A DNA stretch of 32,000 nucleotides. Origin: Patescibacteria group bacterium (GTDB lineage Bacteria > Patescibacteriota > Patescibacteriia > 2-01-FULL-39-33). The stretch's first letter is position 1; the number at the start of each line of letters is the position of its first letter. The notes below the pieces were generated by a model. It had not been told where the DNA came from. It saw only the letters and a program-made list of their open reading frames with translations, and did no database searches. The stretch covers positions 90,001 to 122,000 of the forward strand of contig JBAZMW010000001.1 of NCBI GenBank assembly GCA_041649575.1, written 5' to 3'. The translations under genes and the position numbers were made by a program. Shown here one piece after another: positions 14,765 to 29,540 of the stretch.

Positions 14765-14802
14765 ATTCAATAGGGATAATAAACAACATAACCAAAAATA
14801 AT

Positions 14803-15288: not shown

Positions 15289-15292
15289 ACAT

Positions 15293-15777: not shown

Positions 15778-15793
15778 GGATCATCTATAAAAA

Positions 15794-15829: not shown

Positions 15830-15869
15830 TTTGGCCGTTTTTATGATAAAATAAGGTAAACTAAAATTT

Positions 15870-16727: not shown

Positions 16728-16731
16728 ACAA

Positions 16732-17019: not shown

Positions 17020-17050
17020 AATAAGCCCATAAAAAATAATCATAAAACCC

Positions 17051-17635
17051 ATGCAGGAAACTTTAAAGAATCTGACCAAAGCTTTTATCGGCGAATCGCA
17101 GGCCAGAAACCGCTATACCATGTATGCCAGTGTAGCCAAAAAAGAGGGCTTTGAGCAGATAGCCGAAATTTTTTTGCTCACCGCCGATCAAGAGCGGGAA
17201 CATGCCAATAAAGTATTTAAAGAAATTCAGGAACTCAAAAAAGACAATCCCGAAGAATTGGCCGCGATCAGGGTGGAGGCCGAAGCGCCGACCGCTTATG
17301 GCACCACGGCCGAAAACCTGAAGGCGGCCATTGCCGGCGAGAATTACGAACACACCAAGATGTACCCGGAGTTTGCCGACGTCGCCGATAGCGAAGGCCT
17401 AAAAAGCGTTGCTTTTAGATTGCGCCACATCGCCACAGCCGAAGAGCATCACGAAGAAAGGTATAAAAAATTATTAAAAGAAGTAGTAGCGGACACCGTC
17501 TTTAAAAAAGACAAGGAAGTTTGGTGGGTCTGTCGCGAATGCGGTTATCAGCATTTTGGCAAAGAAGCGCCCCAGGAGTGCCCGTCTTGCAATCACGCTC
17601 AAGCATTTTATCAGGTGAAGTGCGAAGAGTATTAA
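17051..17635 (+). CDS. rbr: Rubrerythrin
   Basis: It has an N-terminal ferritin-like diiron domain (ESQARNRY, ADQEREHA, ENYEHTKMYPEF, AEEHHEERY). Its C-terminal rubredoxin-like domain is CRECGY...CPSCNH. Confidence 0.93.
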   Translation: MQETLKNLTKAFIGESQARNRYTMYASVAKKEGFEQIAEIFLLTADQEREHANKVFKEIQELKKDNPEELAAIRVEAEAPTAYGTTAENLKAAIAGENYEHTKMYPEFADVADSEGLKSVAFRLRHIATAEEHHEERYKKLLKEVVADTVFKKDKEVWWVCRECGYQHFGKEAPQECPSCNHAQAFYQVKCEEY

Positions 17636-17643
17636 TTTAATTT

Positions 17644-18246
17644 ATGCAGTATTATATCCCTCTAATCATGGAGGGGCTGCGCCATTACGGCTATTTTATT
17701 TTATTCTTTGGCGCTTTTTTTGCCGGCGAAACCTTTATCCTGGCGGCGGCATTTTTGGCTTCTTGGAAATATTTTAATTTGCAGTGGGTGATTTTGGTCA
17801 GTTTGTTGGCAGTGCTTCTTTCAGACAGCCTTTGGTATTTCATCGGGCTGAAATTTTCCCAGCCCATCAGCCGCTTCAGGCGTTTCTTCTCACCAGTTAG
17901 ATACGAAAAAAGAATTGCCGCTTTCAAAAACGGTTTTAATAAACACTATCGGGAGTTTTTGATTTTGGGGAAATTCGTTTATGGAGCGAGGATTTTGACG
18001 CTTTTGGCCGCCGGCCATCAAAAAATAAATTATAAAAAATTCTTATATTATAATTTTATCGGCAATATTATCTGGCTGTTTGCGGTAATAATCGTGGGCT
18101 GTCTGATGGGCCTGGCCTGGGATTATCTTGATCGGTTCAATCACTATTGGCGTTATTTGATTTTGGTCGGCTTGGCCCTGCTACTGGCGGTCAGATTCGT
18201 TTTCAGTAAAATTATTAAAAAACTCAATTATGAGCCGGGAAGTTGA
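17644..18246 (+). CDS. DedA/SNARE-associated family membrane protein
   Basis: It has typical DedA features: FFGAFFAGETFILAAAFLA, LLSDSLWYFIGLKF and GKFVYGARILTLLAAG. Confidence 0.82.
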   Translation: MQYYIPLIMEGLRHYGYFILFFGAFFAGETFILAAAFLASWKYFNLQWVILVSLLAVLLSDSLWYFIGLKFSQPISRFRRFFSPVRYEKRIAAFKNGFNKHYREFLILGKFVYGARILTLLAAGHQKINYKKFLYYNFIGNIIWLFAVIIVGCLMGLAWDYLDRFNHYWRYLILVGLALLLAVRFVFSKIIKKLNYEPGS

Positions 18247-20065
18247 AGAGATAAAAGCCAAGCTGGATTTGGTGGATTTTATGAGCGAATACGTCAAACT
18301 GTTGCCGGCGGGCGGTAATTTTAAGGCTCTTTGCCCTTTTCATAACGAAAAGACCCCGTCTCTAATGGTCAATCGCCAGAGGCAAATTTGGAAATGTTTC
18401 GGTTGCGGCGAGGGCGGAGATGTTTTTAATTTTTTGATGAAAATAGAAGGGTTGGAATTTGCCGAAGCACTGAAGGTTTTGGCGCAAAGGGCGGGCGTGG
18501 CCCTAAGAACCCAGGACCCGGCGCTTAACAGCGAAAAAAATCGTCTTTATGGTCTTTTGGATTTGGCTGCGCGTTATTGGCACAAGGTGCTTTTGGATTC
18601 TTCGGCGGCCAAGGAAGCCAGGGATTATTTAAGCCAGCGGGGCCTAAGCTGGGAGACGATCGAAGATTTTCGCCTGGGTTATGCCATCGAAGCCTGGGAT
18701 GATTTGAATAACTTTCTGATTAAGAAGGGTTTCACTGAAGCAGAAATTTTTTCAGCCGGTTTGTCGGTAAAAAAAGAGCGGGGAACCGGTTTTTATGATC
18801 GTTTCCGAGCCAGAATAATGTTTCCCATTCTTGATTTGCACGGGCGGGCAGTGGGCTTTGGCGGCCGGACTCTAAAAAAAGAAGAAGCCGCCAAATACAT
18901 CAATACGCCGCAGACCAGCGTTTATAATAAAAGTTCGGTTCTCTATGGCTTCTACCGGGCCAAGGAGACAATCAAAAAAAATGACTTGTGCATTTTGGTT
19001 GAAGGCTACATGGACGTTTTGCCTTCTTATCAGGCGGGGGTAAAAAATGTGGCGGCGATTTCTGGCACCGCCTTGACCGGGGAGCAAATAAAAATTTTAA
19101 AAAGATACTCAAACAATCTGGCCCTGGCTCTGGATATGGATGCGGCCGGTCAGCAGGCGGCTTTGCGTAGCATTGATCTGGCCTTGGCCGAAGAAATGAA
19201 CGTCAAAATAATCAGCCTGCCTTTTGGTAAAGATCCGGGGGAGTGCATTAAGAATAATCCTCAAGATTGGCCGGACTCGATAGTAAAGGCGCAGGCGGTG
19301 ATGGATTATTTCTTTGGCTCGGCCCTGTCCAAATACGACATCAGTCAGCCGGAACAAAAGAAAAAAGCCGCTAAATTTTTGCTGGAGAAAATCAGTAAGC
19401 TGGGGGACAGGGTGGAGCAGGATTATTGGCTGAAAAAATTGGCCGCCACTCTAGCGGCATCAGAAGCGGTTCTAAGAGAGCTGCTGGTCAAGCTGGAGAG
19501 GGGATTTGGCAAAAGAGTCGGCGTCAAAAAAACGGAAGCCGCGCAAAACAGGCCGTCAGAAGATCAGGAACTGATACTTTTGAAAAGGCTTCTGGTCTTG
19601 GCTTTTAATTTTCCTCAATATTTTTTCAGAATCGTCGAGAGCGTCTCCCTGGATTTTTGGAATAATGATTTAAATCTTAGTCTTTACAAAAAGATTGTAT
19701 TATTTTATACTAGAAATACCGGTTCATTGGAAAAGTTGTCTGTGGATAAGCTGGGAACAGAAATTTGGAAAATATTCGACGAGTGGCTAAAGCGGGATAA
19801 GCCGGATTTTAGCGCCGCAGAATCAAAATTATTGGAAGAAGTTTTTTTATTGGCTCAGGCCGAGCGCGGTGTGATTGAGGAAAAAGCGGCCAAAGAAGAG
19901 CTGGATAATTTTTTAAAGTTGCTTAAAAACAATTATTTGACCGGCGAGATAGACAGATTAAAACAGACTCTGGAAAAAGCGGAACTGGCCGGCCGGCCGG
20001 CAGAAGAGCTGGCGCAGATTTATTTGAAACTTAACGAATTAATCAAACAAAAAAATATTAATTAA
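18230..20065 (+). CDS. dnaG: DNA primase DnaG
   Basis: It has a zinc-binding domain ([13 protein letters not shown]...[15 protein letters not shown]) and a TOPRIM domain (LVEGYMDV...DMDAAGQ). It lies upstream of rpoD, the classical macromolecular-synthesis arrangement. Confidence 0.95.
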
Positions 20066-20112
20066 TACGCCTCGTTAAAATCAGCGGGGCAATTATCAAA
20101 GGTTCTAATTTA

Positions 20113-21417
20113 ATGTCCTCGAAAAAAAATAGAGGCAAGAAGAATAGAAATAAAAAGCCGGCCAAAACCAAAACCGCCGGCAGGCGAACAGCCAAAATTA
20201 GGAAGACGGCAGGTTCCAAAAATAAAAAATCTCAGTCCGCCAAACACAAAAAAAATTTAAAGGCGGCTATTAAAAAAAAGAGAGCCAAGCTTCGCAAACT
20301 TCCTAAGGCCATAGTCAAACCAGACGAAGAAGCGATCCAAACCTTGATTCGAAAGGGTAGATCGCGTGGTTTTATTACTGAACAAGAATTGCAGATAATT
20401 TTGCCGGAGCTGGAAGAATATATTATTCGCTACGAAGATTTGCTGGAAGAACTAGATCGGTTGGGAATTAATATCATGGAGTCGGGCGGTTTCTTTTCTT
20501 CGGCCCAGGCTAAAACCGAAGAGAAAAAGCCTGAAAAAAAGAGAAAGCCCAAAGCCAAAGCGATTACCGAGAGCGATATTAGCTTGGGGGATATTTCCAC
20601 CGATTCGATCCAGATGTATTTGAGAGAAATCGGCCGAGTGCCGTTGTTGTCTTCCGAGGAAGAAGTTTATCTGGCCAAAAAAATAGAAGAAGGCGAAATC
20701 GAGGCGCGGCAAAAATTGATCAGGGCTAATCTGCGCCTGGTGGTTTCGGTGGCCAAAAAGTTTCAAGGCAAAAGCCTGTCTCTTTTGGATTTGATTCAAG
20801 AGGGAAATATCGGGCTGTTTCGGGCGGTAGATAAATTCGATTATCGCAAGGGTTATAAATTTTCCACTTATGCCACTTGGTGGATCAGGCAGGCCATCAC
20901 CCGCTCTCTGGCCGATCAGTCGCGCACTATTCGCATTCCGGTGCATATGGTGGAAAACATTAATAAATTTCAGCAAGTAGAGCGGCGTCTGGTGCAGGAT
21001 CTGGGCCGCGAGCCGTTGCCGGAAGAAATTGCCGCCGAGATGGGCGAGGAGTTGGTCAAGATAAATCATATTATAAAAATTTCCCAAGAGACGATTTCTC
21101 TGGGCACGCCGGTAGGCGATGATAGTGATGACAGTATTCTGGAAGATTTTATCGAAGATCAGAAGACCATTAGTCCGGATAAGGCAGCCGCTTTGCAGAT
21201 TCTGGGCGATTATGTGCGACAAGTGATTTCCGAGCTCACGCCGCGCGAACAAAAGGTGCTCGAGATGCGTTTTGGGTTAAAAGACGGCGTAGCACATACA
21301 TTGGAAGAAGTGGGTCAGGAGTTTGATGTTACGCGTGAGCGTATTCGGCAAATAGAGGCCAAGGCGTTGGAAAAGATTGAAAAAATAAAGGGCATTGAAA
21401 AATTGAAAGATTTCTAA
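20113..21417 (+). CDS. rpoD: Primary sigma factor RpoD (sigma-70) with Lys/Arg-rich N-terminal extension
   Basis: Region 2 is [39 protein letters not shown]. Region 3 is present. Region 4.2 is [23 protein letters not shown]. The first ~70 aa are extremely basic. Confidence 0.95.
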
Positions 21418-21421
21418 ATTA

Positions 21422-21450
21422 TTGACAGCGGCTGGGTTTTTTGTTAATAT
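21422..21450 (+). promoter_or_regulatory. Near-consensus sigma-70 promoter driving the tRNA-Asn leader
   Basis: TTGACA (21422-21427), a 17-nt spacer, then TAATAT (21445-21450). It lies about 200 nt upstream of the mature tRNA-Asn 5' end. Confidence 0.55.
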
Positions 21451-21482
21451 TTTTTTAGAGTCATGTCTGATGGCTCTTTTAA

Positions 21483-21614
21483 AAAAACAAATGATCCGCG
21501 ATAGCGAAATGGGTCGAGGCCATAGGCCGAGACGGGCAGAAGCGAGCAAAGCGAGAGTCGATGAATGCGACCTTAGGGAGCATTCAGCGCTGCCCCGGAA
21601 GAGCAACCGGCGTT
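21483..21614 (+). other. Partial tRNA-Asn 5'-half copy interrupted by a GC-rich structured insert, within the tRNA leader
   Basis: 21483-21505 (AAAAACAAATGATCCGCGATAGC) repeats 21640-21662, which is 12 nt of upstream sequence plus tRNA positions 1-11. 21600-21611 (AGAGCAACCGGC) repeats 21671-21682, the D-stem 3' strand and anticodon-stem 5' strand. About 90 nt lie between them where the real tRNA has a 9-nt D-loop. That insert contains the stems GGGCAG/CTGCCC and TGAATGC/GCATTCA. Confidence 0.4.
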
Positions 21615-21637
21615 TAGTATATGGCAAAAGTAACAAA

Positions 21638-23107
21638 CTAAAAACAAATGATCCGCGATAGCTCAATGGTAGAGCAACCGGCTGTTAACCGGTAGGTTGC
21701 TGGTTCGAATCCAGCTCGCGGAGCCAAGAAACTAGATACGAACTCATTTTTTGAAGATGAGAGTGTTCGCTCGCCCAGCCCCGCCAATGGCGGGGCTGGC
21801 CTTCGCTCCGCGACGGCTTCGCCGTCGTTTTGGCGGGAAATGAAGCGAATTTTAATGCTTTCGGGGGAATAGAAAATGTTTGAAAGAAACTTTTTAGCAA
21901 AAAGATTTCTTTCAATTCCTTTGGTAGTTTTGAGTCCGGTAATGAAAAATTTTAGAGTGTCCGAAATGCTTTCGGTGGAAAATTTAGAGCATCCATCCGT
22001 TAGTTCGTATCCAGCGCGGTGTCCCGCTTGTTCGTCGTTGTTTAAGCGAAAAACAAGATTTTCAACATAATTTTTATCAACCGAAATGCGCTCTAAATTT
22101 TCCAAACAAAAATCTTCTAATCGTTCGGCGGACACTTGTTTTACTGAACACGCTTGCCAGTCCTGTTTCATCGTGGCGGTGCAACGATAGTAATAATAGC
22201 GGTTCAATTTTCCAGCGATATATTTGTTGGTAAAACAAGAAGTCATATTTGAACCACACTCTTCACATTTTATAAGTCCGCCGAACAGGAAGTTTTTGTA
22301 CACTCTAAAATTTTTCCGCTTTTCCTTATGAATTTTTTGAGCAAGGGCAAAAATTTCTTCTGAAATTATCGGCTTGTGAATACCTTGATAAATTTCGCCA
22401 TTGTGTAAAACCTTACCTATGTAGATAACATTTCGCAAAATGTGGCTGATATTTGTTTTAGAGAAATTTTTGCCTAACTTATTTTTGATACCTCTATCTT
22501 TCAGCATTTGGTAAGTTTTCGCCGTTGAGCCGGTTTCAATATAAGTTTCAAAAATTGATTTTATTTCTTCCGCTTCTTTTTGGTGCGGGATAAGTTTCTT
22601 ATCTTCTCGCTTGTAGCCATAAGGAGTTAGCCCGCCGTTTGCGAGCCCCTTTTTCGCGCGCTCCAACATTTTGTCTTTTGTTCTCTCGCTGGTTAGCTCT
22701 CGCTCAAATTGAGAAAAAGTGAGCATAATATTGCGAAGCAATCTTCCGGCGGGCGTTGAAGTATCAAACCTTTCCGTAATGGAAATAAAATCAATTTTTG
22801 CTTGCTCAAAAAATTCTATCAGTTGGTAAAAATCTTTTGGAGAACGAGTGAGCCGATCGATTTTGTAGACCAAAACCACATCAATTTTTTCTTTTTTCAA
22901 ATCAGCAAGTAATTCCTGCAAGGCGGGACGTTGTAAAATTGCGCCAGAAAATCCAGCGTCGTTATAAACTTTAAAAACCTGCCAATCATTTTGACTTTCG
23001 ATAAACGACCGGATTTTCTGCTCTTGCGCTTCGCAAGATGAAAATTCTTTTTCCGCTTGGTTATCAGTTGAAACTCTTGTATAAATGGCGCAATTTTTCA
23101 TATTCAT
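21638..23107 (-). CDS. Large serine recombinase (integrase/invertase); 3' end uncertain
   Basis: It has an N-terminal resolvase domain with the catalytic Ser in AIYTRVSTDNQ, plus VYKIDRLTRS. It also has a recombinase domain and a zinc ribbon (CEECGSNM...YYYYRCTA...WQACS). The ORF has no stop until it has crossed repeat A and the whole tRNA-Asn gene in antisense (tail ...PRAGFEPATYRLTAGCSTIELSRIICF). Confidence 0.9.
   Translation of the reverse strand: MNMKNCAIYTRVSTDNQAEKEFSSCEAQEQKIRSFIESQNDWQVFKVYNDAGFSGAILQRPALQELLADLKKEKIDVVLVYKIDRLTRSPKDFYQLIEFFEQAKIDFISITERFDTSTPAGRLLRNIMLTFSQFERELTSERTKDKMLERAKKGLANGGLTPYGYKREDKKLIPHQKEAEEIKSIFETYIETGSTAKTYQMLKDRGIKNKLGKNFSKTNISHILRNVIYIGKVLHNGEIYQGIHKPIISEEIFALAQKIHKEKRKNFRVYKNFLFGGLIKCEECGSNMTSCFTNKYIAGKLNRYYYYRCTATMKQDWQACSVKQVSAERLEDFCLENLERISVDKNYVENLVFRLNNDEQAGHRAGYELTDGCSKFSTESISDTLKFFITGLKTTKGIERNLFAKKFLSNIFYSPESIKIRFISRQNDGEAVAERRPAPPLAGLGERTLSSSKNEFVSSFLAPRAGFEPATYRLTAGCSTIELSRIICF
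21652..21726 (+). tRNA. tRNA-Asn (anticodon GTT), CCA encoded
   Basis: Hand-folded as follows:
- Acceptor stem: TCCGCGA/TCGCGGA.
- D arm: GCTC-AATGGTA-GAGC.
- Anticodon stem and loop: ACCGG/CCGGT with loop CTGTTAA.
- T arm: GCTGG-TTCGAAT-CCAGC.
- Discriminator G followed by CCA. Confidence 0.92.
21720..21870. repeat. Inverted repeat A, left arm (151 bp)
   Basis: It is the reverse complement of 23145-23295 with a single mismatch (21848 versus 23167). It starts inside the tRNA-Asn 3' end and covers the 3' part of the recombinase ORF. Confidence 0.95.
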
Positions 23108-23144
23108 AAATTTATATTATTAGTTTTTAAAAAGAAAAAATTGA

Positions 23145-23295
23145 ATTCCCCCGAAAGCATTAAAATCCGCTTCATTTCCCGCCAAAACGACGGCGAAGCC
23201 GTCGCGGAGCGAAGGCCAGCCCCGCCATTGGCGGGGCTGGGCGAGCGAACACTCTCATCTTCAAAAAATGAGTTCGTATCTAGTTTCTTGGCTCC
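23145..23295. repeat. Inverted repeat A, right arm (151 bp)
   Basis: It is the reverse complement of 21720-21870 (150/151 identical). It lies 37 nt upstream of the recombinase start codon. Confidence 0.95.
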
Positions 23296-23498
23296 CGAAT
23301 TAAAACCTTCGCAAACTTTTGAAATTATTTTGCCAAATCTGATACACAAATCCAAAAAGCGAAACCTGAAATGATACGCCCCGCCACTATTTTTCTGGGG
23401 CAAAGGAGGCGGGGCGACGGACTCGCCCGCGCAGAGGAGGGGTCTGGGGAGGAATCCGCGCGGGCTTCGGCTTTCCTTTTTGAAAAAATCGGCGGCTA
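23288..23498. repeat. Inverted repeat B, left arm (211 bp)
   Basis: It is the exact reverse complement of 26466-26676. It overlaps repeat A's right arm by the 8-bp core (23288-23295). Confidence 0.95.
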
Positions 23499-23502
23499 AA
23501 AA

Positions 23503-23531
23503 TTGAAGAAAAATAAAATTCATGTTAGTAT
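23503..23531 (+). promoter_or_regulatory. Candidate promoter of the cargo operon, followed by tandem ATACT motifs
   Basis: TTGAAG (23503-23508), a 17-nt spacer, then TAGTAT (23526-23531). Three ATACT repeats (starting at 23558, 23564 and 23572) abut the XRE start codon and could be an operator. Confidence 0.4.
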
Positions 23532-23576
23532 AGTTGTGAGGGTTAAGTTCAACGCTCATACTTATACTATCATACT

Positions 23577-23786
23577 ATGGAAAGTAATAAAAAACAAATT
23601 GGGGATAAAATTAAAGCCGTCCGCACAAAACAAGGATTGACGCAGGATGCCCTTGCTCGAAAATGTGATATTCCCTACACAACACTGACAAAAATTGAAT
23701 CAAATGTCATAACCAAGCCGTCAATCCAAACAGTTGTTAAGATTGCCACAGGGTTGGGCATTTCAGTAGATGAACTTTTGAAATGA
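23577..23786 (+). CDS. XRE-family helix-turn-helix transcriptional regulator
   Basis: 69 aa with a typical Cro/C1 HTH (RTKQGLTQDALARKCDIPYTTLTKIESN...SIQTVVKIATGLGISVDELL). Confidence 0.88.
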   Translation: MESNKKQIGDKIKAVRTKQGLTQDALARKCDIPYTTLTKIESNVITKPSIQTVVKIATGLGISVDELLK

Positions 23787-23787
23787 T

Positions 23788-25245
23788 ATGAAATTAACCT
23801 CGCTTACAATAAAAAATTTTCGAAGTATTGAAGAGGAAACTTTTGATATTACAGAAGTTGATAACACCTATACTTTTACGCTCATAGGCATTAACGAATC
23901 CGGGAAAAGTAGTTTTTTGAAAGCAGTTTCGTTGGTTGATAATGATGATGAAAAAGTTATTTTCCCTAAAGATTATTTTGAGGAAACAGAATCAATTAGC
24001 ATTGTTTTGAATTACGAGCTTGAAACACAAGAAGAAAAAGACCTAAAAAGTGCTCTTACAGAAAAGGGATTTGAGAAAGACATTTTATCAAAAATAAAGG
24101 TCGAACAGGTTTCTGTTTGTGCGACTTTTGAACCGGTGGCAAATGCACCAAAGAAAGTTTTTGATCAGATTACATTTCAGCAAAAAGTTTTTGACGACTA
24201 CACCTTACTTGGCGACAAACCTACTAAAAAAGACCCACAACAAACACAGGAGGATTTTGACATTGAGAAGTATTTTGAAGTGCATTTGCCGAAATATTTT
24301 TGGAAAATTGCTCACAGGATTGTTTTTTGGAAATCTGATAGTAAGCACCTTATCAATGAACAAATAAACCTTGATACATTTGCTGCTAACCCTGAAGAAA
24401 CATCAATCCCATTGATAAATTGCTTTGAGTTGGCTGGTGTGGCACAAGATCAAATTGTCTCGCAAGTTGCTAAACTAAAAACTGACGATGCTGAGATAGA
24501 TAATCTTGAAGAAAAGCTTGGAGACAAAGTAACTGCCCATATCAAGAAAGTTTGGTCTAATCATCCAATCAAAATAAAATTTAAGATAAATAATTCATTG
24601 CTAACACTTCTCGTTGAGGATGATAAAGTAAAATACAAATCAAAGACAACCGAGCAGAGAAGTGATGGCTTTCGGCAGTTTATTTCATTCCTCCTAACAA
24701 TTTCGGCAGAAAGCGCGACAAATCAGCTCTCTAATTCTTTGCTATTACTTGATGAGCCGGAAACCCATTTGCATCCCCAAGCACAAGAGTATTTGAAAGA
24801 CGAATTGATTAAGATAACGAGAAATGACGAAAACAACATCGTCTTTTTTGCCACGCACTCAAACTACATGATTGATAAGGAACATATTGAACGATGTTTT
24901 AGAGTTTCCAAACAATCAAACCGAAGGACAAAATTGGAAAAATTTCAAGCAGGTCAGAAATCATATGCGGAGGTAAACTATGAAGTTTTTAATATCGTAT
25001 CTTCTGACTACCACAACGAGCTATATGGATATTTAGAAGATGTAGACAAAACAAAATTAGATGGATTAGATAAAACGAAAAAGTGGAAGAATAAGAAAAA
25101 TAATGGTGTAGAGACAGATGTCTCATTGGCAACTTATATTCGACATTCAATCCATCATCCCGAAAATACACTTAATGCAAAATTCACTCCCGAAGAATTG
25201 GAGGGGTCAATTGAAAGTTTAAGAAAATTGAAATATGGAAACTAA
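23788..25245 (+). CDS. ABC/SMC-like (AAA_15/AAA_21-type) ATPase with an uncharacterised C-terminal domain
   Basis: - N-terminus: LTIKNFRSIEE.
- Walker A: GINESGKSS (23887-23913).
- Signature-like motif: QRSDGFRQFISFLL.
- Walker B: LLLLDEPETHLHP.
- H-loop: FFATHS.
- C-terminal ~100 aa: contains YIRHSIHHPEN (R-x4-H, 25141-25158).
- I recognise no TOPRIM or other nuclease domain. Confidence 0.88.
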   Translation: MKLTSLTIKNFRSIEEETFDITEVDNTYTFTLIGINESGKSSFLKAVSLVDNDDEKVIFPKDYFEETESISIVLNYELETQEEKDLKSALTEKGFEKDILSKIKVEQVSVCATFEPVANAPKKVFDQITFQQKVFDDYTLLGDKPTKKDPQQTQEDFDIEKYFEVHLPKYFWKIAHRIVFWKSDSKHLINEQINLDTFAANPEETSIPLINCFELAGVAQDQIVSQVAKLKTDDAEIDNLEEKLGDKVTAHIKKVWSNHPIKIKFKINNSLLTLLVEDDKVKYKSKTTEQRSDGFRQFISFLLTISAESATNQLSNSLLLLDEPETHLHPQAQEYLKDELIKITRNDENNIVFFATHSNYMIDKEHIERCFRVSKQSNRRTKLEKFQAGQKSYAEVNYEVFNIVSSDYHNELYGYLEDVDKTKLDGLDKTKKWKNKKNNGVETDVSLATYIRHSIHHPENTLNAKFTPEELEGSIESLRKLKYGN

Positions 25246-25558
25246 AAATGTAAAATTTGTTGTTTTTGTTCCACTCTCTCACGCTGGCGCTGTGCGCCAA
25301 GCTCTTGGTGAAGCTGGAGCGGGAAAAATAGGAAATTATGACTTCTGCTCTTTTTCTTCTCGTGGCACCGGTCGCTTTCGCGGTAATGAAAATACAAATC
25401 CTACTATTGGCGAAGCCGGAAAATATGAAGCAGTTGAGGAAGAACGGATTGAGGTGATAGTGCCACGAGATATTTTGAGAGAAGTCATCGAAAAAGTAAA
25501 AAGTGTTCATCCATATGAGGAAGTCGCTTTTGATATTTATCCGCTAGAAAATATATGA
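25235..25558 (+). CDS. Small Nif3/YqfO-insert-domain-like protein
   Basis: 107 aa. The pattern KFVVFVP...H...V..AL..AGAG.IGNY..CSF...G.G.F.....NP.IGE.G....V.E.RIE resembles the inserted domain of Nif3-family proteins as I recall it. It overlaps the ATPase stop by 11 nt. Confidence 0.65.
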   Translation: METKNVKFVVFVPLSHAGAVRQALGEAGAGKIGNYDFCSFSSRGTGRFRGNENTNPTIGEAGKYEAVEEERIEVIVPRDILREVIEKVKSVHPYEEVAFDIYPLENI

Positions 25559-26010
25559 CCGACAAACAATTTCTCCAAAAAGCAATAGAAAAAGCGAGAG
25601 AGTCTGTGGCACAGGGTGGTTTTCCTGCTGGTGCGATAGTCGTTAAAAATGGAGAAATTATCGGCGAAGGAGTTTCTGTCGGCAATAAACTGAACGACCC
25701 GACTAGCCACGGCGAAATGGCCTCAATTCGGGCGGCATGCAAAAACCTCAATACTTCCGATTTATCAAACTCGATACTCTATGCGTCCATGCAACCTTGC
25801 CTAATGTGCCTCGGTGCGTCTATGTGGAGCGCGATACCGAAAATCGTTTTTGCATGCCCCAAAGAGAAAGTATCGACTGAATACTACGGCGGACATTACA
25901 AGCCGTCTGCTATCAACGCAGAACTAACTCGTCCGATTGAATTAGTCCATTTCGCCGAACTGGAGAACGAATCGTTGACGATCGTCCGCGAGTGGGAAAA
26001 ATCATTATGA
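25555..26010 (+). CDS. CDA-fold zinc-dependent nucleoside/nucleobase deaminase
   Basis: It has an H-x-E motif (HGE, 25708-25716) and PCxxC (PCLMC, ending at 25809), in a 151-aa protein typical of the cytidine/deoxycytidylate deaminase superfamily (guanine, cytosine or TadA-like). Its start overlaps the upstream stop (ATGA). Confidence 0.88.
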   Translation: MTDKQFLQKAIEKARESVAQGGFPAGAIVVKNGEIIGEGVSVGNKLNDPTSHGEMASIRAACKNLNTSDLSNSILYASMQPCLMCLGASMWSAIPKIVFACPKEKVSTEYYGGHYKPSAINAELTRPIELVHFAELENESLTIVREWEKSL

Positions 26011-26468
26011 ACACCGACAAACTCGCAAAATTTCTAAACGAAGCAAACAAAGCGACCTACGCCAATAAAACTGCGCCAAAAGTCGCACCCTCTCGTTTAA
26101 AGTCAGAGGATTACCAATTTGAAAAAGACGGACTAATTTATCACGATACTTATTTTGGTGGGCGCGACTTTATCGGCGAGGAAATCGTATACGAAAATGA
26201 GAAACCAGCATGGGGCGCAAATTATTTTGGTTTCGTGCTTGATAAAAGTATTAGCGAGAAAGATGTATACGATTTTCTGCGCCGTGCGCTCATGCAGGAA
26301 TATAATGATGTGATTCCAGTACGAGGACCAAGCAACTTTTCCGTTGACGACAAAGAATATCGTTTTGTTGTGAATGGCGACCTTGCCAATTTCTCTGGCA
26401 CAGAGGAAATTTTATTTGACGGAAAAGTTGTTTATCGCTGTCTAATACACGGAGGATTTATTAGATAG
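26007..26468 (+). CDS. DUF5680-like protein (function unknown)
   Basis: I prefer the start at ATG 26007, which gives an ATGA overlap with the deaminase stop; the track offers GTG at 25992. The pattern KATYANK...YHDTYFGG.DFIGEE.V.....P.WGANYFG matches my recollection of DUF5680, but this is unverified. Confidence 0.65.
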   Translation: MNTDKLAKFLNEANKATYANKTAPKVAPSRLKSEDYQFEKDGLIYHDTYFGGRDFIGEEIVYENEKPAWGANYFGFVLDKSISEKDVYDFLRRALMQEYNDVIPVRGPSNFSVDDKEYRFVVNGDLANFSGTEEILFDGKVVYRCLIHGGFIR

Positions 26469-26676
26469 CCGCCGATTTTTTCAAAAAGGAAAGCCGAAGC
26501 CCGCGCGGATTCCTCCCCAGACCCCTCCTCTGCGCGGGCGAGTCCGTCGCCCCGCCTCCTTTGCCCCAGAAAAATAGTGGCGGGGCGTATCATTTCAGGT
26601 TTCGCTTTTTGGATTTGTGTATCAGATTTGGCAAAATAATTTCAAAAGTTTGCGAAGGTTTTAATTCGGGAGCCAA
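26466..26676. repeat. Inverted repeat B, right arm (211 bp)
   Basis: It is the exact reverse complement of 23288-23498. It begins 3 nt before the stop of the last cargo gene and ends with the core GGAGCCAA (26669-26676). Confidence 0.95.
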
Positions 26677-26687
26677 ATTGTATGTTC

Positions 26688-26716
26688 GCCACCCTTATGG
26701 GTGGTGTTTTGTTTTT
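26688..26716 (+). terminator. Rho-independent terminator, probably the original tRNA-Asn terminator displaced by the island
   Basis: Hairpin GCCACCC-ttat-GGGTGGT followed by GTTTTGTTTTT. It starts 12 nt after the right core copy. Confidence 0.6.
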
Positions 26717-26728
26717 GATTTATTTTTT

Positions 26729-26737
26729 TGTTATAAT
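26729..26737 (+). promoter_or_regulatory. Extended -10 element (TGtTATAAT) for tspO
   Basis: TGTTATAAT ends 9 nt before the ATG at 26747. No Shine-Dalgarno sequence lies between them. Confidence 0.45.
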
Positions 26738-26746
26738 CTAGATAAG

Positions 26747-27142
26747 ATGAACACCTACAACTGGTATTCACAACTCATCAAACCATTATGGTCACCGCCA
26801 AGCTGGCTTTTTGGACCGGTGTGGACGGTGTTATACGCGATTATAGTCGTTTCTTTCGGCACGGTGTTTTATAAAATGCTTACAGGCAAAATTACTTGGA
26901 TTGTCGCTTTACCGTTTGTGCTCAATCTAGTTTTCAATTTTATTTTTACGCCAATTCAATTTGGACTTAAAAATAATCTTTTGGCGGCAATAGACATTTT
27001 GCTCGTTCTTGGCACACTCGTTTGGGCAATGGCGGCCATTTATCCGTATGCTCGTTGGATCGCATACATCCAAATCCCGCACTTGCTCTGGGTTTCGTTC
27101 GCGACTGTTTTACAATTAACCATTACTTATTTGAATAGATAG
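26747..27142 (+). CDS. tspO: TspO/MBR family tryptophan-rich sensory protein
   Basis: I moved the start to the ATG at 26747, because the track start at 26561 lies in repeat B. The signature is WYSQLIKPLWSPPSWLFGPVWTVLY, and the protein has five hydrophobic segments. Confidence 0.88.
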   Translation: MNTYNWYSQLIKPLWSPPSWLFGPVWTVLYAIIVVSFGTVFYKMLTGKITWIVALPFVLNLVFNFIFTPIQFGLKNNLLAAIDILLVLGTLVWAMAAIYPYARWIAYIQIPHLLWVSFATVLQLTITYLNR

Positions 27143-27497: not shown

Positions 27498-27538
27498 AAC
27501 TAGCAAATCCTGCAAACTGTTCATTATAAATTCTGATT

Positions 27539-27575
27539 AAAAAAACGAGGGCGGAGAAAACAAGTTCCCCGCCCT
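27539..27575 (-). terminator. Rho-independent terminator of the antiporter gene
   Basis: On the minus strand: AGGGCGGGGA-acttgttt-TCTCCGCCCT with one mismatch, followed by CGTTTTTTT. Confidence 0.55.
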
Positions 27576-27596
27576 ATAAAACGACTCGGTCGCGTT

Positions 27597-29348
27597 CTAG
27601 ACCTCTGCCTTCAGCGCGCCGTGATGGGCTACCCCCTTCTTACGCAGCTCTCCACCCGTTCCCTCCAGTAGGATGGTCAGGTTTGCCCCCTCTTCTCCCT
27701 GACCGCAGAGCAACTGGCTGGCCGCCAGCATGTAGGTGACGAGCACGTAGTGAGCACCCATCTCATACAGCTCCATAGCTTTCTTCCTGGAGTCCACAAT
27801 CCCGATAAAGTTGACCTCGGGGTTCTGCTCCTTGACGTGTCTTAGAAGCAACTCCGTGTCTCTCATGTCGGGAATGGATGAGAACACGGTTTGGATTTTG
27901 GACCAGTCTATAAGAGCCAGCACCTCATGACTCGAGGTGTCCCCAAAGATGCAGGGCACCTTGTCTCGTTCCAGTTGAGCAATGACGTCGGGGTTGTGAT
28001 CTATAACCACATATTTCTTCCCGAGCTTACGTAACGCTCGTTCCAGGATTCGGCCCAGCCGGTCGTGTCCCACCAGAACCACTTCGAACCCGTCTCGTGT
28101 CGCTATCTCCGTGCCATCTTGCAGCTGCTTCCTGGAGGTCAGACGATCCAGCCATTTCAGTCTGTCGCCCAGCAGCCGATAGAGCGACTGGCTGTATTTC
28201 ATGGAGTACGACGATAGGGCAATAGACACGACCGTGATGATAATGATCGGCGACAGCAGCGACGGGCTGAGGTGGCCCAGGGCAATGCCTTGAGCTATCA
28301 GGATGAGACTGAACTCGGACAATTGGCCGACTGCCAGGCCTACACTGAAAGAGGTAGACCGGCGATAGCCAAACAGCCCCACAATAACCATCGTCATTAT
28401 CGGCTTGATCACCATGGCGATCACCGAGAAGACAACAATTAGCAGCCAGTACTGCGAGAGGGTGCTGTAGAATGTCAGGACCTTCAACTGGTCGACCGTT
28501 TCAGTAAACAGCGACTCCGGAGCCAACTGCAGTCCCAAAGAGGCAAAGAACAGCACCGTGAAGAAGCTTTTCAGTGCCTCCAGGTCGCCGATGATCTCAT
28601 AGCGATAACAGAGACGCGCGATAGCCAGCCCCGCCAGAAAAGAGCCGATGCCCATGGACAACTTCTGATGCTGGGCGTAGAACGCCGTGATAAACAGGAT
28701 GCCCATGGTCACCACAAACAGCACTTCTCTTTCCTTGGCCACATACTTGAAGACCTTTGGGAAGACAAACCGCCCGCAGACGAAGACGATTATCAGTATC
28801 AGACCGGCGGCCAGCGTCAGCGTCGAGAGCAGGATGTCCGGCGAGAAGTCATTGATGGTGGTCAGGATGGAGAGGGCAAAAATCGCCATCACGTCCTGCA
28901 TGACCAGAATGCCAATGACGATCTTGCCGTAGAGGGAGTCCAGGTCATACTTCTCTCCCAAGACCTTGACGACCAGCATGGTGGAGGAAAAGGCCGAGAT
29001 CAGCCCGAAATAGACGGCCGTGACATTGCTAAGCCCGAAGAGCTTGCCGGCGCCAAAGCCCAAGGCAAGGGTTGTGGCTACCTGCAGAGCTCCGCCCAAC
29101 ATCGCCACCGCACCCACTTTCTTGAGCCGTTCCAGGTCCATCTCGATACCGATAATGAACAACATCACCACGATCGCCACCTCGGAGAGTTCTGCGATGG
29201 CTTCGGGATGGTTGATCAGGTTGATCCCGAGAGGCCCCAGGACAACTCCCACCAGTACATAAGCGGGAATCATGGGCTGCCTCAAGGCCTTGAATACTAG
29301 CCCGGCGATCCCGGCGAGCACGAAAATCGCTCCGATTTGCGCTATCAT
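27597..29348 (-). CDS. CPA2-family cation:proton antiporter with C-terminal RCK/TrkA-N domain (Kef-type)
   Basis: It has an N-terminal Na+/H+ exchanger-type polytopic domain (LGPLGINLI...EVAIVVMLFIIGIEMDL). The C-terminal domain is Rossmann-like (FEVVLVGHDRLGRILERALRKLGKKYVVIDHNPD). A strong SD (AAGGAGAAG) lies upstream. The gene looks more GC-rich than its surroundings. Confidence 0.9.
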   Translation of the reverse strand: MIAQIGAIFVLAGIAGLVFKALRQPMIPAYVLVGVVLGPLGINLINHPEAIAELSEVAIVVMLFIIGIEMDLERLKKVGAVAMLGGALQVATTLALGFGAGKLFGLSNVTAVYFGLISAFSSTMLVVKVLGEKYDLDSLYGKIVIGILVMQDVMAIFALSILTTINDFSPDILLSTLTLAAGLILIIVFVCGRFVFPKVFKYVAKEREVLFVVTMGILFITAFYAQHQKLSMGIGSFLAGLAIARLCYRYEIIGDLEALKSFFTVLFFASLGLQLAPESLFTETVDQLKVLTFYSTLSQYWLLIVVFSVIAMVIKPIMTMVIVGLFGYRRSTSFSVGLAVGQLSEFSLILIAQGIALGHLSPSLLSPIIIITVVSIALSSYSMKYSQSLYRLLGDRLKWLDRLTSRKQLQDGTEIATRDGFEVVLVGHDRLGRILERALRKLGKKYVVIDHNPDVIAQLERDKVPCIFGDTSSHEVLALIDWSKIQTVFSSIPDMRDTELLLRHVKEQNPEVNFIGIVDSRKKAMELYEMGAHYVLVTYMLAASQLLCGQGEEGANLTILLEGTGGELRKKGVAHHGALKAEV

Positions 29349-29540
29349 TAGTCTTCTCCTTTTGCAAAATTGAACGCGATTAAGACATCTTATTATGTGC
29401 GATGTTACCTTTACGGATAACTTTTTATTTTATAATAAAAATTGGGTTTTTGTCAATATAGAAGACATCATTGTTACTAGTAGGATTCTTTCATAATGTT
29501 TTATATATTTTTTGTTTTTTTATTTGTGGATAACCAGGTC

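What the first reader, a model, noticed from the sequence alone, without database searches (positions are those of the whole stretch)
23577..26468. Translationally coupled XRE / ABC-like ATPase / Nif3-like / CDA deaminase / DUF5680-like operon as island cargo: candidate uncharacterised defence or abortive-infection system
- Five genes sit on one strand with junctions of +1, -11, -4 (ATGA) and -4 (ATGA) nt. They lie behind one candidate promoter and are enclosed by the 211-bp inverted repeat.
- The ATPase has the N-terminal ...KNFRSIEE... and GxxxSGKS architecture. This is shared by ATPases of known anti-phage systems such as the OLD/Gabija, Septu and PARIS ATPase components. It lacks any TOPRIM or other nuclease partner that I can see.
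- The only evident enzymatic effector is a small CDA-fold deaminase (HGE...PCLMC).
- ATPase-plus-deaminase logic is known from RADAR, and nucleotide-depleting deaminases are known defence effectors. Those proteins belong to different families and are much larger.
- This particular combination, on a tRNA-integrated recombinase element, is not one I recognise as a described system.
- The alternative is unrelated housekeeping-type cargo, such as a guanine or cytosine deaminase.
Basis: inference. Interest (0 to 1): 0.75.

Follow-up and report, generated by a model that had tools for sequence, protein, structure and literature searches.

The report
Swappable island cargo with defence-type ATPase
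The five tightly packed genes are real, but they are a patchwork rather than one machine: a restriction-system-associated, defence-type ATPase plus three unrelated small proteins, carried as one of at least two interchangeable cargo cassettes of a small tRNA-integrated mobile element in a Patescibacteria genome.

Summary
**Observation: confirmed.**
- Five + strand ORFs lie at 23577-26468, with junctions of +1, -11, -4 and -4 nt.
- They sit inside a perfect 211-nt inverted repeat, next to a tRNA-Asn-integrated large serine recombinase (LSR).

**Interpretation (ATPase plus deaminase as one defence system): not upheld.**
- The five genes occur together only in a 100% identical copy.
- 80 species-representative loci and about 20 close metagenomic relatives of the ATPase all lack the other three genes.
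- The ATPase is an OLD-like ABC ATPase without Toprim. It has its own conserved ~100-aa C-terminal domain, which has no Pfam match and no Foldseek match.
- In close relatives it is the last gene of C-protein/methylase/endonuclease operons of different families. In distant relatives it sits inside type I hsdM-X-hsdS-hsdR operons. It therefore looks like a self-contained, restriction-linked defence gene, with PrrC as the nearest analogue.
- The other three genes are a stand-alone NIF3/YqfO insert domain, a TadA/GuaD-clade deaminase and DUF5680. Each recurs separately in variable XRE-led arrays of small enzymes in Patescibacteria.
- In a near-identical strain (99.86% flank identity), the same recombinase and repeat carry a different cargo.

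**Most novel point (outside the finding).** The element design recurs: attL, recombinase, an inverted internal attP, repeat-bounded cargo, attR.

The parts
21652..21726 (+). tRNA-Asn (GTT). Its 3' end holds the integration core GGAGCCAA (21720-21727), which is attL.
   Evidence: ARAGORN and Rfam tRNA at 76 bits.
21638..23107 (-). Large serine recombinase. The last ~50 codons lie in repeat IR-a, and the ORF reads through the core into the tRNA.
   Evidence: Pfam Resolvase, Recombinase and Zn_ribbon_recom. PHROG integrase at E 2e-116.
21720..21870 (.). IR-a left arm (core plus the P' half, called X here).
   Evidence: 151 nt, 99% complementary to 23145-23295.
23145..23295 (.). IR-a right arm. 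Together with the next arm it forms an intact attP (P-core-P') in inverted orientation.
23288..23498 (.). IR-b left arm (core plus the P half, called Y' here). The inner ~130 nt form a two-hairpin, GC-rich element.
   Evidence: 211 nt, 100% complementary to 26466-26676. Fold. A 91% identical copy lies in another genome, L101.
23577..23786 (+). XRE/Cro-C1 HTH regulator, the first gene of the cargo.
   Evidence: HTH_3 at E 3e-16. PADLOC Control_protein at E 2e-10. It is 55% identical to the XRE that heads array L093/L094, against 41-44% to the C-proteins of the R-M+ATPase operons.
23788..25245 (+). OLD-like ABC ATPase without Toprim. Intact motifs: Walker A G34-K40-S, Q290-RSDG, Walker B D322-E323 and H357.
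   Evidence: AAA_15 at E 2e-22 and AAA_21 at E 3e-15. PADLOC Old, AriA, AbiLi, GajA and PtuA match the ATPase part only. PDB 6p74 (OLD family) at E 5e-11. Invariant motifs are shown in alignment A1.
24940..25242 (+). Family-specific C-terminal domain of the ATPase (residues 385-485). Conserved motifs are D407-Y-H-N-E411 and R452-x3-H456-H457-P-E-N460.
   Evidence: Alignments A1 and A3. AF2 model with pLDDT 93.7 and topology a-a-a-b-b-a-a. No Pfam hit at E<=10. No Foldseek match in PDB or BFVD. 443 50%-identity clusters carry it; in the full-length proteins listed (about 440-540 aa) it sits at the C-terminal end.
25235..25558 (+). Stand-alone NIF3/YqfO insert (cap) domain protein, 107 aa.
   Evidence: Matches 2gx8 residues 163-262 at E 7e-36. 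Homologues of 82-92% identity are very common in Patescibacteria. It occurs in other contexts in L099 and L101.
25555..26010 (+). Small CDA-fold zinc deaminase (HGE...PCLMC) of the TadA/GuaD/guanosine-deaminase clade.
   Evidence: Pfam at E 8e-24. PDB 1tiy at 3e-22, 1wwr at 2e-21 and 7dbf at 5e-20. NCBIfam TadA scores 74 bits against a cut-off of 150.
26007..26468 (+). DUF5680 protein, 153 aa.
   Evidence: Pfam 110 bits. Homologues of 66-100% identity across Patescibacteria. AF2 model with pLDDT 93, with only weak chorismate-lyase/UTRA-like hits.
26466..26676 (.). IR-b right arm, ending in the core GGAGCCAA (26669-26676), which is attR.
26687..26716 (+). Terminator-like hairpin plus T-run just outside the element. 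It is probably the original tRNA-Asn terminator.
   Evidence: and the sequence. The assignment to the tRNA is inference.

Best explanation
**What it is.** The interval is the cargo cassette of a ~5-kb large-serine-recombinase (LSR) element integrated in the 3' end of tRNA-Asn. The cassette is one XRE-led polycistron assembled from unrelated parts.

**Part 1: the ATPase.**
- It is an OLD-like ABC ATPase fused to a family-specific C-terminal domain of about 100 aa.
- This protein is a self-contained module that normally travels with restriction-modification (R-M) systems.
- Most likely mechanism (inferred): the ABC domains dimerise on ATP. The protein responds to foreign DNA or to interference with restriction. 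The conserved C-terminal domain, with its D-x-H-N-E and R-x3-H-H-P-E-N motifs, delivers the output, probably a nucleolytic or growth-arresting activity. This is the logic of PrrC. In this window the R-M partner is absent.

**Part 2: three small proteins.**
- They are a stand-alone NIF3/YqfO insert domain, a TadA/GuaD-clade deaminase and DUF5680.
- They come from a pool of small, mostly nucleotide-related genes that Patescibacteria string behind an XRE gene in variable, translationally coupled arrays.
- Three of four such arrays checked lie directly next to or between tRNA genes, and one is bounded by long inverted repeats.
- These three proteins most likely act on their own substrates and are not effectors of the ATPase.

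**Regulation.** The XRE protein probably autoregulates the whole transcript.

**Shown versus inferred.**
- Shown: gene content, the mosaic ancestry, the R-M association of the ATPase family, the att-site architecture, and the existence of an alternative cargo.
- Inferred: the defence function and the PrrC-like mechanism.
For: **Mosaic ancestry**
- Nucleotide homology to the R-M-linked ATPase loci covers only the ATPase ORF: 23787-25241 at 84% identity.
- Homology to L097 covers the ATPase plus the insert-domain gene only: 23781-25558 at 82%.
- Homology to L093/L094 covers the deaminase plus DUF5680 only: 25553-26466 at 80%.
- The XRE is closest (55% identity) to the XRE that heads the L093 array.

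**No co-occurrence**
- None of 80 GTDB loci carries the three small genes within 7 kb of the ATPase.
- None of about 20 close metagenomic relatives does either.

**R-M association of the ATPase**
- 13 of 32 loci with a resolved ATPase ORF carry hsdM, hsdS or hsdR genes within three genes of it. The usual order is hsdM-ATPase-hsdS-hsdR.
- Relatives of 84-91% identity are the last gene of HTH/N6_N4 methylase/MvaI_BcnI operons or of HTH/EcoRI-methylase/GmrSD_N-HNH operons.
- Other neighbours include an AbiC-like protein, Fic and a TIR protein.

**The ATPase looks complete on its own**
- Its motifs are invariant.
- The C-terminal domain model is confident.
- Among the full-length proteins listed, the domain sits at the C-terminal end of proteins with this ATPase's length.

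**Small genes elsewhere**
- L093/L094: XRE, MazG-like, DUF4406, DUF3850, a HAD-like gene, the deaminase, DUF5680, GrpB, SET.
- L095: XRE, GrpB, a 175-aa gene, DUF5680, NUDIX.
- L099: XRE, RibD_C, the insert domain, SET ... Tag.
- L101: His_Phos_1, the insert domain, GDSL.
- DUF5680 also occurs alone in chromosomal contexts.

**Cassette swap**
- Contig L148 is 99.86% identical to window 13113-23492, then continues into a different XRE-led cargo.
- The five-gene cassette lies on its own contig, L087, in the same sample.
Against: - No experiment exists for any member of the ATPase family.
- PADLOC hits are generic ATPase matches.
- In this window the ATPase has no R-M partner, so a guard role would have nothing to guard.
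- ATPase plus insert domain are adjacent with the same 11-nt overlap in two elements, the window and L097. A two-gene module therefore cannot be excluded.
- Neighbourhood sampling is modest: about 100 ATPase loci and about a dozen contexts for the small genes.
- The small-gene arrays might themselves have a conflict-related role.
Confidence: 0.6

Rival explanations
1. All five genes form one dedicated defence or abortive-infection system, in which the ATPase senses infection and the CDA deaminase is the effector (RADAR-like or nucleotide-depletion logic).
For: - One strand and tight coupling.
- An ATPase of the defence type.
- A mobile-element context.
- The same five genes on a second contig, L087.
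Against: - L087 is 100% identical, so it is the same cassette and not independent.
- None of more than 100 ATPase loci holds the deaminase, DUF5680 or, apart from L097/L098, the insert domain.
- The deaminase+DUF5680 pair occurs without the ATPase.
- The deaminase is closest to housekeeping-type GuaD, TadA and guanosine deaminase, and has no credible PADLOC hit.
- The operon is demonstrably a mosaic.
Confidence: 0.06
2. The functional unit is XRE + ATPase + NIF3-insert domain protein. This would be a three-gene module in which the small PII/CutA-like protein partners the ATPase. The deaminase and DUF5680 would be passengers.
For: The ATPase and insert-domain genes are adjacent with the same 11-nt overlap in two LSR elements integrated at different tRNAs, the window and L097/L098. 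Nucleotide homology of 82% spans both genes.
Against: - The shared block is homologous by descent, so it counts as one event.
- About 20 other close ATPase relatives and 80 distant ones lack the insert-domain gene.
- The window's insert-domain protein is closer (90%) to the copy in an ATPase-free array, L099, than to the L097 copy (82%).
- The protein is extremely common and conserved across Patescibacteria, independently of the ATPase.
Confidence: 0.1
3. The ATPase is an accessory subunit that assists restriction, for example by DNA loading, translocation or target search. It would not be a guard or suicide module. In this window it would be an orphan left after the methylase and endonuclease genes were lost.
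For: - It is always placed inside or at the end of R-M operons of unrelated types.
- In L097 the upstream HTH is 89-91% identical to the C-proteins of the R-M versions, while the methylase and endonuclease genes are missing. This suggests deletion.
Against: - An accessory that serves type I, MvaI/BcnI-type and GmrSD/HNH-type enzymes alike is hard to picture.
- Solitary copies persist intact in many genomes and on a Klebsiella plasmid.
- The window copy keeps all catalytic motifs.
Confidence: 0.15
4. The XRE-led arrays of small enzymes form a coherent nucleotide-pool or nucleic-acid-modification toolkit with a conflict role, either anti-phage or anti-defence. The array members seen are deaminase, MazG, NUDIX, deoxyribosyltransferase-like, SET, GrpB, RibD_C, Tag, DUF5680 and the insert domain. 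On this view the whole operon is defence-related, though not through ATPase-deaminase coupling.
For: - The arrays recur behind homologous XRE genes, next to tRNA genes or bounded by long repeats.
- In the window such genes sit with a defence-type ATPase on a mobile element.
- Many of these folds act on nucleotides.
Against: - DUF5680 and the insert-domain gene also occur in ordinary chromosomal contexts.
- Neither was found on viral contigs.
- There are no PADLOC hits.
- Patescibacteria depend on nucleotide salvage (established knowledge), which explains such genes without any conflict role.
- Array composition is not conserved.
Confidence: 0.12

Closest known systems
PrrC / RloC anticodon nucleases (ABC-type NTPase fused to a C-terminal RNase; prrC lies inside a type Ic hsd locus)
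   Same: - N-terminal ABC-family ATPase plus a C-terminal domain of about 100 aa in one polypeptide.
- Relatives sit between the hsd genes of type I R-M operons.
- Conserved Arg, His and Glu residues in the C-terminal domain.
- The PrrC architecture and its R-M silencing are described in PMC3025547 and PMC3458546.
   Different: - No Pfam AAA_13 match and no PrrC-like match was returned.
- No Arg-Glu-His triad in PrrC spacing.
- The fold is a-a-a-b-b-a-a, with no Pfam or Foldseek match to any family, HEPN included.
- It is also linked to type II R-M systems.
- tRNase activity is untested.
OLD-family nucleases and their ATPase relatives in Gabija (GajA), PARIS (AriA), Septu (PtuA) and AbiL/RloA (AbiLi)
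   Same: AAA_15/AAA_21 ATPase with the N-terminal K-N-F-R-S-I strand, Walker A and an interrupted ABC core. PADLOC gives Old at 2e-25, AriA at 7e-24 and AbiLi at 1e-16. PDB 6p74 scores 5e-11.
   Different: - No Toprim domain.
- No GajB, AriB, PtuB or AbiLii/RloB partner gene, here or in relatives.
- A different, family-specific C-terminal domain takes the place of Toprim.
RADAR (RdrA ATPase + RdrB deaminase) and dCTP-deaminase nucleotide-depletion defence
   Same: An ATPase gene and a deaminase gene lie in one operon on a mobile element.
   Different: - The deaminase is a 151-aa CDA-fold enzyme of the TadA/GuaD clade.
- PADLOC dCTPase reaches only E 0.008 over 54 residues.
- ATPase and deaminase do not co-occur outside this cassette.
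C-protein-controlled restriction-modification operons
   Same: A small XRE/C-type HTH is the first gene (PADLOC Control_protein at 2e-10). Close relatives of the ATPase lie in HTH-M-R-ATPase operons.
   Different: There is no methylase or endonuclease in the window's cassette. The window's XRE is closer to the XREs that head the small-enzyme arrays.
B. subtilis guanine deaminase GuaD (1tiy), TadA and plant guanosine deaminase
   Same: CDA fold, the N-D-P-T-x-H-x-E and P-C-x-M-C zinc motifs, and a similar size.
   Different: - It scores below the TadA equivalog cut-off, 74 against 150 bits.
- In the HMMER alignment, the GuaD segment GFDDSF (which contains the residue I recall as substrate-binding Asp114) pairs with GHYKPS.
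- The substrate is unknown.
NIF3/YqfO (PDB 2gx8, 2nyd)
   Same: The 107-aa protein aligns end to end with the inserted cap domain, residues 163-262 of 2gx8, at E 7e-36.
   Different: It lacks the NIF3 core entirely and has no Pfam hit. It is a free-standing domain protein, very common in Patescibacteria.
Large-serine-recombinase integrative elements (phage integrases, SCCmec Ccr). By design analogy, also the yeast 2-micron plasmid and engineered recombinase-mediated cassette exchange.
   Same: - LSR domain set.
- Integration at a tRNA 3' end, with attL and attR sharing a short core.
- Two inverted copies of the recombination region split the element into two segments, as in the 2-micron plasmid (established knowledge).
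   Different: - An intact attP in inverted orientation lies inside the integrated element.
- The recombinase's 3' end is encoded in the repeat.
- I found no description of this design in the searchable literature. That is not proof of novelty.

Membership tests
OLD-family nuclease / Gabija GajA | N-terminal ABC-type ATPase (AAA_15/AAA_21) | tested here: met
   Pfam AAA_15 at 2e-22 and AAA_21 at 3e-15. PADLOC Old and GajA match the ATPase part. PDB 6p74 at 5e-11.
OLD-family nuclease / Gabija GajA | C-terminal Toprim nuclease domain (and, for Gabija, a GajB helicase partner) | tested here: not met
   No Toprim hit in Pfam. PADLOC Old and GajA alignments stop at about residue 390. No helicase gene in the cassette.
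PARIS (AriA/AriB), Septu (PtuA/PtuB), AbiL (AbiLi/AbiLii) | A partner effector gene next to the ATPase: AriB Toprim, PtuB HNH or AbiLii/RloB | tested here: not met
   PADLOC and Pfam find no such protein among the four other genes. Relatives have R-M genes as neighbours instead.
PrrC/RloC anticodon nuclease | ABC ATPase fused to a C-terminal nuclease domain in one protein | tested here: inconclusive
   The architecture is analogous. The C-terminal domain is conserved and confidently modelled. It has no detectable similarity to any known nuclease, and no AAA_13 hit was returned.
PrrC/RloC anticodon nuclease | Genetic linkage to a type I R-M locus that silences it | tested here: inconclusive
   Met for distant relatives, where 13 of 32 loci carry hsd genes. 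Not met in this window, which has no R-M genes in the cassette. Silencing is not testable with these tools.
PrrC/RloC anticodon nuclease | tRNA anticodon cleavage using an Arg-Glu-His triad | not testable with these tools
   Conserved R452, H456/H457 and E459 exist, but in a different spacing. The histidines vary in some relatives. The PrrC triad is taken from PMC3025547.
HEPN RNase superfamily | All-alpha four-helix core with an invariant R-x4-6-H motif | tested here: not met
   The model has three helices, a beta-hairpin and two helices. R-N/H-x-I-H-H fits Rx4H in most members, but some have IHY. No HEPN family was found in Pfam at E<=10.
RADAR / deaminase-based nucleotide-depletion defence | Conserved co-occurrence of the ATPase with a dedicated deaminase of the RdrB or dCTP-deaminase family | tested here: not met
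   No co-occurrence in more than 100 loci. PADLOC dCTPase reaches E 0.008 only. The deaminase is in the TadA/GuaD clade.
CDA-fold zinc deaminase (dCMP_cyt_deam_1) | H-x-E and P-C-x-x-C zinc motifs within the domain | tested here: met
   84 bits against a cut-off of 25. HGE and PCLMC are seen in the sequence.
tRNA adenosine(34) deaminase TadA | Score above the NCBIfam equivalog cut-off | tested here: not met
   74.4 bits against a cut-off of 150.
NIF3 / GTP cyclohydrolase 1 type 2 family | NIF3 core with the dinuclear metal site | tested here: not met
   No Pfam hit of any kind. The match to 2gx8 is confined to insert residues 163-262.
DUF5680 | Pfam PF18931 above the gathering score | tested here: met
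   110.1 bits against 25.
Large serine recombinase integrative element | Resolvase + Recombinase + zinc-ribbon domains; attL and attR sharing a core with the target tRNA | tested here: met
   Domains. Core GGAGCCAA at 21720 and 26669, with attP-type halves.

The most novel reading that the evidence does not exclude
**Element design.** The operon may be one exchangeable and invertible cargo cassette of an undescribed family of Patescibacteria tRNA-targeting LSR elements. In these elements an intact attP, in inverted orientation, sits between the recombinase module and the cargo module, so each module is bounded by long near-perfect inverted repeats made of attP halves.
- The full design, with tRNA target and att sequences resolved, is seen in three independent elements at tRNA-Asn, tRNA-Ser and tRNA-Gln. 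Their recombinases are only ~27% identical.
- Further partial examples exist.
- Near-identical strains carry different cargo at the same repeat.
- This could be a natural cassette-exchange or inversion platform that distributes R-M systems and defence genes.

**ATPase.** The ATPase it often carries may be a new R-M-guarding effector with an orphan-fold output domain.
Probability: 0.3. Interest if true: 0.65.

Novelty: new variant of a known kind. Interest (0 to 1): 0.4.

Why it matters
**For defence biology**
- The useful product is not a new ATPase-deaminase system.
- It is a well-delimited, widespread family of at least 443 clusters at 50% identity. Its members are Toprim-less OLD-like ATPases with an orphan C-terminal domain, embedded in R-M operons of several types.
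- That makes it a concrete candidate for a PrrC-style second line of defence. It can be tested in cultivable Bacteroidota or Proteobacteria homologues, or with the Klebsiella plasmid copy.

**For scan methodology**
- Translational coupling and a shared XRE gene are poor evidence of joint function in compact Patescibacteria genomes. There, unrelated small genes are routinely strung together.

**For mobile-element biology**
- The recurrent attL / recombinase / inverted attP / cargo / attR design, together with the observed cargo replacement between near-identical strains, suggests how ultra-small genomes shuffle accessory genes.

Tried and rejected
1. **HEPN reading of the ATPase C-terminus.**
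   - It was prompted by YIR[HN]xIHHPEN, which resembles RNxxxH.
   - It was rejected as a membership claim: the histidines are not invariant, the model is not an all-alpha bundle, and there is no Pfam hit at E<=10.
2. **HNH / beta-beta-alpha-metal reading of the hairpin-plus-helix.** Rejected, because the hairpin holds no conserved histidine.
3. **Fold searches.**
   - Foldseek against PDB and BFVD gave nothing better than E ~1 for the C-terminal domain.
   - The DUF5680 model gave only weak chorismate-lyase/UTRA-like hits, with TM 0.26-0.29. I treat that as inconclusive.
4. **Phage origin.** No member of the ATPase family and no DUF5680 or insert-domain homologue was found on IMG/VR contigs.
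5. **Known RNA in the repeats.** No Rfam match apart from the tRNA.
6. **Promoter claim.** The consensus scan found no site in the 23499-23576 gap.
7. **Assembly artefact as the cause of the inverted repeats.**
   - An independent k141 contig (L087) ends 141 nt into both arms.
   - The same three-site logic recurs in contigs from other samples and other data sources, with different sequences.
8. **Literature.** Searches for DUF5680, for R-M-embedded AAA_15 ATPases and for LSR elements in the Candidate Phyla Radiation returned nothing specific.

Full report
**1. Observation**

The five + strand ORFs exist as described:
- an XRE regulator, 23577-23786;
- a 485-aa ATPase, 23788-25245;
- a 107-aa protein, 25235-25558;
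- a 151-aa deaminase, 25555-26010;
- a 153-aa DUF5680 protein, 26007-26468.

Reading the junction sequences confirms the +1, -11, ATGA and ATGA junctions.

Pfam gives the following:
- HTH_3;
- AAA_15 and AAA_21, with no Toprim;
- dCMP_cyt_deam_1;
- DUF5680;
- nothing for the 107-aa protein.

That 107-aa protein aligns end to end with the inserted cap domain of B. cereus NIF3/YqfO, residues 163-262 of PDB 2gx8, at E 7e-36. It is therefore a free-standing insert domain and not a NIF3 enzyme.

The 211-nt inverted repeat around the operon is perfect. The consensus scan finds no sigma-70-like promoter in the 78-nt leader.

The source is a Patescibacteria MAG:
- The identical DUF5680 protein is recorded on a 244,907-nt contig.
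- The closest named ATPase relatives are from Candidatus Yanofskybacteria.

**2. Do the five genes belong together?**

No.

A profile of the ATPase recovered 80 loci from species-representative genomes: Patescibacteria, Bacteroidota, Proteobacteria, Chlorobi and others. tblastn with the other proteins gave these results:
- The insert domain, the deaminase and DUF5680 were not found within ±7 kb in any locus.
- An XRE lies directly upstream in only one locus.

About 20 close relatives from JGI metagenomes (84-91% aa identity) also lack the three genes.

The only other copy of the five-gene set is ENA contig L087. It is 100% identical and ends exactly 141 nt (the assembler's k-mer length) into both repeat arms.

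Nucleotide homology shows a mosaic:

| Related locus | Window region matched | Identity | Genes covered |
|---|---|---|---|
| R-M-linked ATPase loci | 23787-25241 | 84% | ATPase only |
| L097/L098 | 23781-25558 | 82% | ATPase + insert domain |
| L093/L094 | 25553-26466 | 80% | deaminase + DUF5680 |

The window's XRE is 55% identical to the XRE that heads L093/L094. It is only 41-44% identical to the C-proteins of the R-M+ATPase operons.

**3. The ATPase**

*Sequence features.* All ABC motifs are invariant across relatives of 53-90% identity: Walker A G34-K40-S, Q290-RSDG, Walker B D322-E323 and H357. PADLOC matches (Old, AriA, AbiLi, GajA, PtuA, NsnB, HEC-01A) cover only the ATPase region. The closest solved relative is an OLD-family protein, 6p74 at E 5e-11, matched over residues 317-390.

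*C-terminal domain.* Residues ~385-485 form a separate conserved domain.
- Its motifs are D407-Y-H-N-E411 and R452-x3-H456-H457-P-E-N460.
- A search of 1.84 billion representatives found it in 443 clusters. In the full-length proteins listed (about 440-540 aa) it sits at the C-terminal end.
- Its AF2 model is confident (pLDDT 93.7), with topology a-a-a-b-b-a-a.
- It has no Pfam hit at E<=10 and no Foldseek match in PDB or BFVD.

*Genomic context.*
- In 13 of 32 resolved GTDB loci the gene lies among type I R-M genes, typically as hsdM-ATPase-hsdS-hsdR.
- At 84-91% identity it is the last gene of HTH/N6_N4-methylase/MvaI_BcnI operons. It is also the last gene of HTH/EcoRI-methylase/GmrSD_N-HNH operons.
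- Elsewhere it is solitary, next to AbiC-like, Fic or TIR genes or between IS copies on a Klebsiella plasmid.
- No member of the family was found on viral contigs.

*Reading.* A single protein that follows R-M systems of unrelated types, and that carries its own conserved output domain, is best read as a self-contained R-M-associated defence gene. The nearest known logic is PrrC: an ABC NTPase fused to a C-terminal nuclease, embedded in a type I locus, silenced by it and unleashed by phage anti-restriction (PMC3025547, PMC3458546). I do not file the protein as a PrrC, OLD or HEPN member, because the defining nuclease features were tested and not met or remain inconclusive.

**4. The three small genes**

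*DUF5680.*
- Homologues of 66-100% identity are common in Patescibacteria.
- At ~70% identity they sit in unrelated chromosomal contexts.
- Closer ones sit in XRE-led arrays. L093/L094 reads XRE, MazG-like, DUF4406, DUF3850, a HAD-like gene, the deaminase (87%), DUF5680 (81%), GrpB, SET. L095 reads XRE, GrpB, a 175-aa gene, DUF5680, NUDIX.
- Its model is confident, but it gives only weak chorismate-lyase/UTRA-like matches.

*Insert-domain protein.*
- It is 82-92% conserved in very many Patescibacteria.
- It occurs in L099 as XRE, RibD_C, insert domain, SET ... Tag, and in L101 as His_Phos_1, insert domain, GDSL.

*Deaminase.*
- It matches B. subtilis guanine deaminase, TadA and plant guanosine deaminase best.
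- It falls below the TadA equivalog cut-off.
- It has no credible PADLOC hit.

Neither DUF5680 nor the insert domain was found on viral contigs.

*Where the arrays sit.*
- L094 lies between two perfect 112-nt repeats that include tRNA-Thr.
- L099 follows tRNA-Ala.
- L095 is bounded by a 141-151-nt inverted repeat.

Overall these are variable strings of small, mostly nucleotide-related genes. Their tight coupling is a property of the genomes, not of a shared pathway.

**5. The element**

*The three sites in the window.* The core GGAGCCAA occurs three times:

| Position | Strand | Flanks | Identity |
|---|---|---|---|
| 21720, the tRNA-Asn 3' end | + | B-core-X | attL |
| 23288 | inverted | Y'-core-X | an intact attP |
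| 26669 | + | Y'-core-B' | attR |

The recombinase module is therefore bounded by 151-nt repeats, which contain the recombinase's own 3' end. The cargo is bounded by 211-nt repeats.

*The design recurs with unrelated sequences.*
- L097: tRNA-Ser, core CCGCAG, repeats of 120 and 207 nt. Its cargo is XRE, ATPase, insert domain and two unknown genes.
- L112/L113: tRNA-Gln, repeats of 93 and 157 nt. Its cargo is HTH, EcoRI-methylase, GmrSD/HNH and ATPase.
- Partial versions occur in L083, L106 and L109.
- The recombinases are only ~27% identical.

*Geometry.* It equals a circle with two inverted attP copies that has integrated through one of them. This reading is inference.

*Alternative cargo.* In the sample that also holds L087, contig L148 is 99.86% identical to window 13113-23492. 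That stretch covers DnaG, RpoD, tRNA-Asn, the recombinase, IR-a and most of the IR-b arm. About 24 nt before the inner end of IR-b it diverges into a different XRE-led cargo of zinc-ribbon proteins. The five-gene operon is thus one of at least two alternative cassettes at this site.

**6. Verdict**

- The proposed ATPase-deaminase system is not supported.
- What remains is a mosaic cargo cassette. Its one plausible defence component is a Toprim-less OLD-like ATPase with an orphan C-terminal domain. This is a new variant of a known kind and is uncharacterised.
- The element architecture and the cassette replacement are the most unusual things seen. They lie partly outside the finding and need read-level and experimental confirmation.

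Noticed in passing
window 21652-26676; also L097 629-6521, L112 533-6589, L083, L106, L109: A recurrent element design: tRNA 3' end (attL), repeat-bounded large serine recombinase, an intact attP in inverted orientation, repeat-bounded XRE-led cargo, attR. The full design, with tRNA target and att sequences resolved, is seen at three different tRNAs, with recombinases only ~27% identical. L106 holds three repeat-bounded modules. I found no description of this design in the searchable literature.
   Followed up: partly
L148 10381 onward versus window 23475 onward; L087: A contig 99.86% identical to the window's chromosome and recombinase carries a different XRE-led cargo (zinc-ribbon/DZR proteins) from ~24 nt inside the inner edge of IR-b. 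The five-gene cassette lies on its own contig in the same sample. Most SNPs between the two haplotypes fall within the IR-b arm.
   Followed up: partly
window 23372-23498 and 26466-26592; L101 4894-5029; L102 1673-1808: The inner ~130 nt of IR-b form a two-hairpin, GC-rich element. It is 91% identical to a sequence just downstream of an unrelated gene in another Paceibacterota genome, with a compensatory G:C to A:T change in one stem. It may be a dispersed terminator-like or REP-like element. It has no Rfam match.
   Followed up: partly
window 21638-21727 versus 23141-23374: The recombinase ORF crosses the att core. Its last ~25 residues are therefore encoded by antisense tRNA sequence in the integrated state. 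After excision they would be different (...FLAPELKPSQTFEIILPNLIHKSKKRNLK).
   Followed up: no
window 21483-21616: Fragments resembling the 5' part of tRNA-Asn lie ~160 nt upstream of the real tRNA (30 nt at 93% and 20 nt at 85%), separated by ~85 nt. They could be a decayed tRNA copy, or an older integration scar. ARAGORN calls no gene there.
   Followed up: no
L093 14-4323; L094 2353-6699; L095 132-2677; L099 2705-3151: XRE-led arrays of small enzymes in other Patescibacteria are bounded by a duplicated full tRNA-Thr (a 112-nt perfect direct repeat), by a 141-151-nt inverted repeat, or follow tRNA-Ala with a 207-nt tandem repeat. No recombinase gene was seen in the sequence held for L093 and L094; the other two were not checked for one.
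   Followed up: partly
window 26007-26468 (model macde4b2596bb): DUF5680 folds confidently (pLDDT 93) as helix + four strands, twice. It has weak chorismate-lyase/UTRA-like matches, which hints at a small-molecule-binding domain. NCBI names some members 'XRE family transcriptional regulator'.
   Followed up: partly
window 27500-29500: GC content rises to 0.52-0.55, against ~0.42 in the surroundings. The rise covers a 583-aa minus-strand ORF (27597-29348) that looks by eye like a cation/proton antiporter with a C-terminal NAD-binding regulatory domain. It may be foreign DNA. It was not annotated with tools.
   Followed up: no
window 26561-27142: The TspO/MBR ORF, as listed, starts at a TTG inside IR-b. 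Pfam covers residues 62-190, so the real start is probably the ATG at 26748, outside the element.
   Followed up: no
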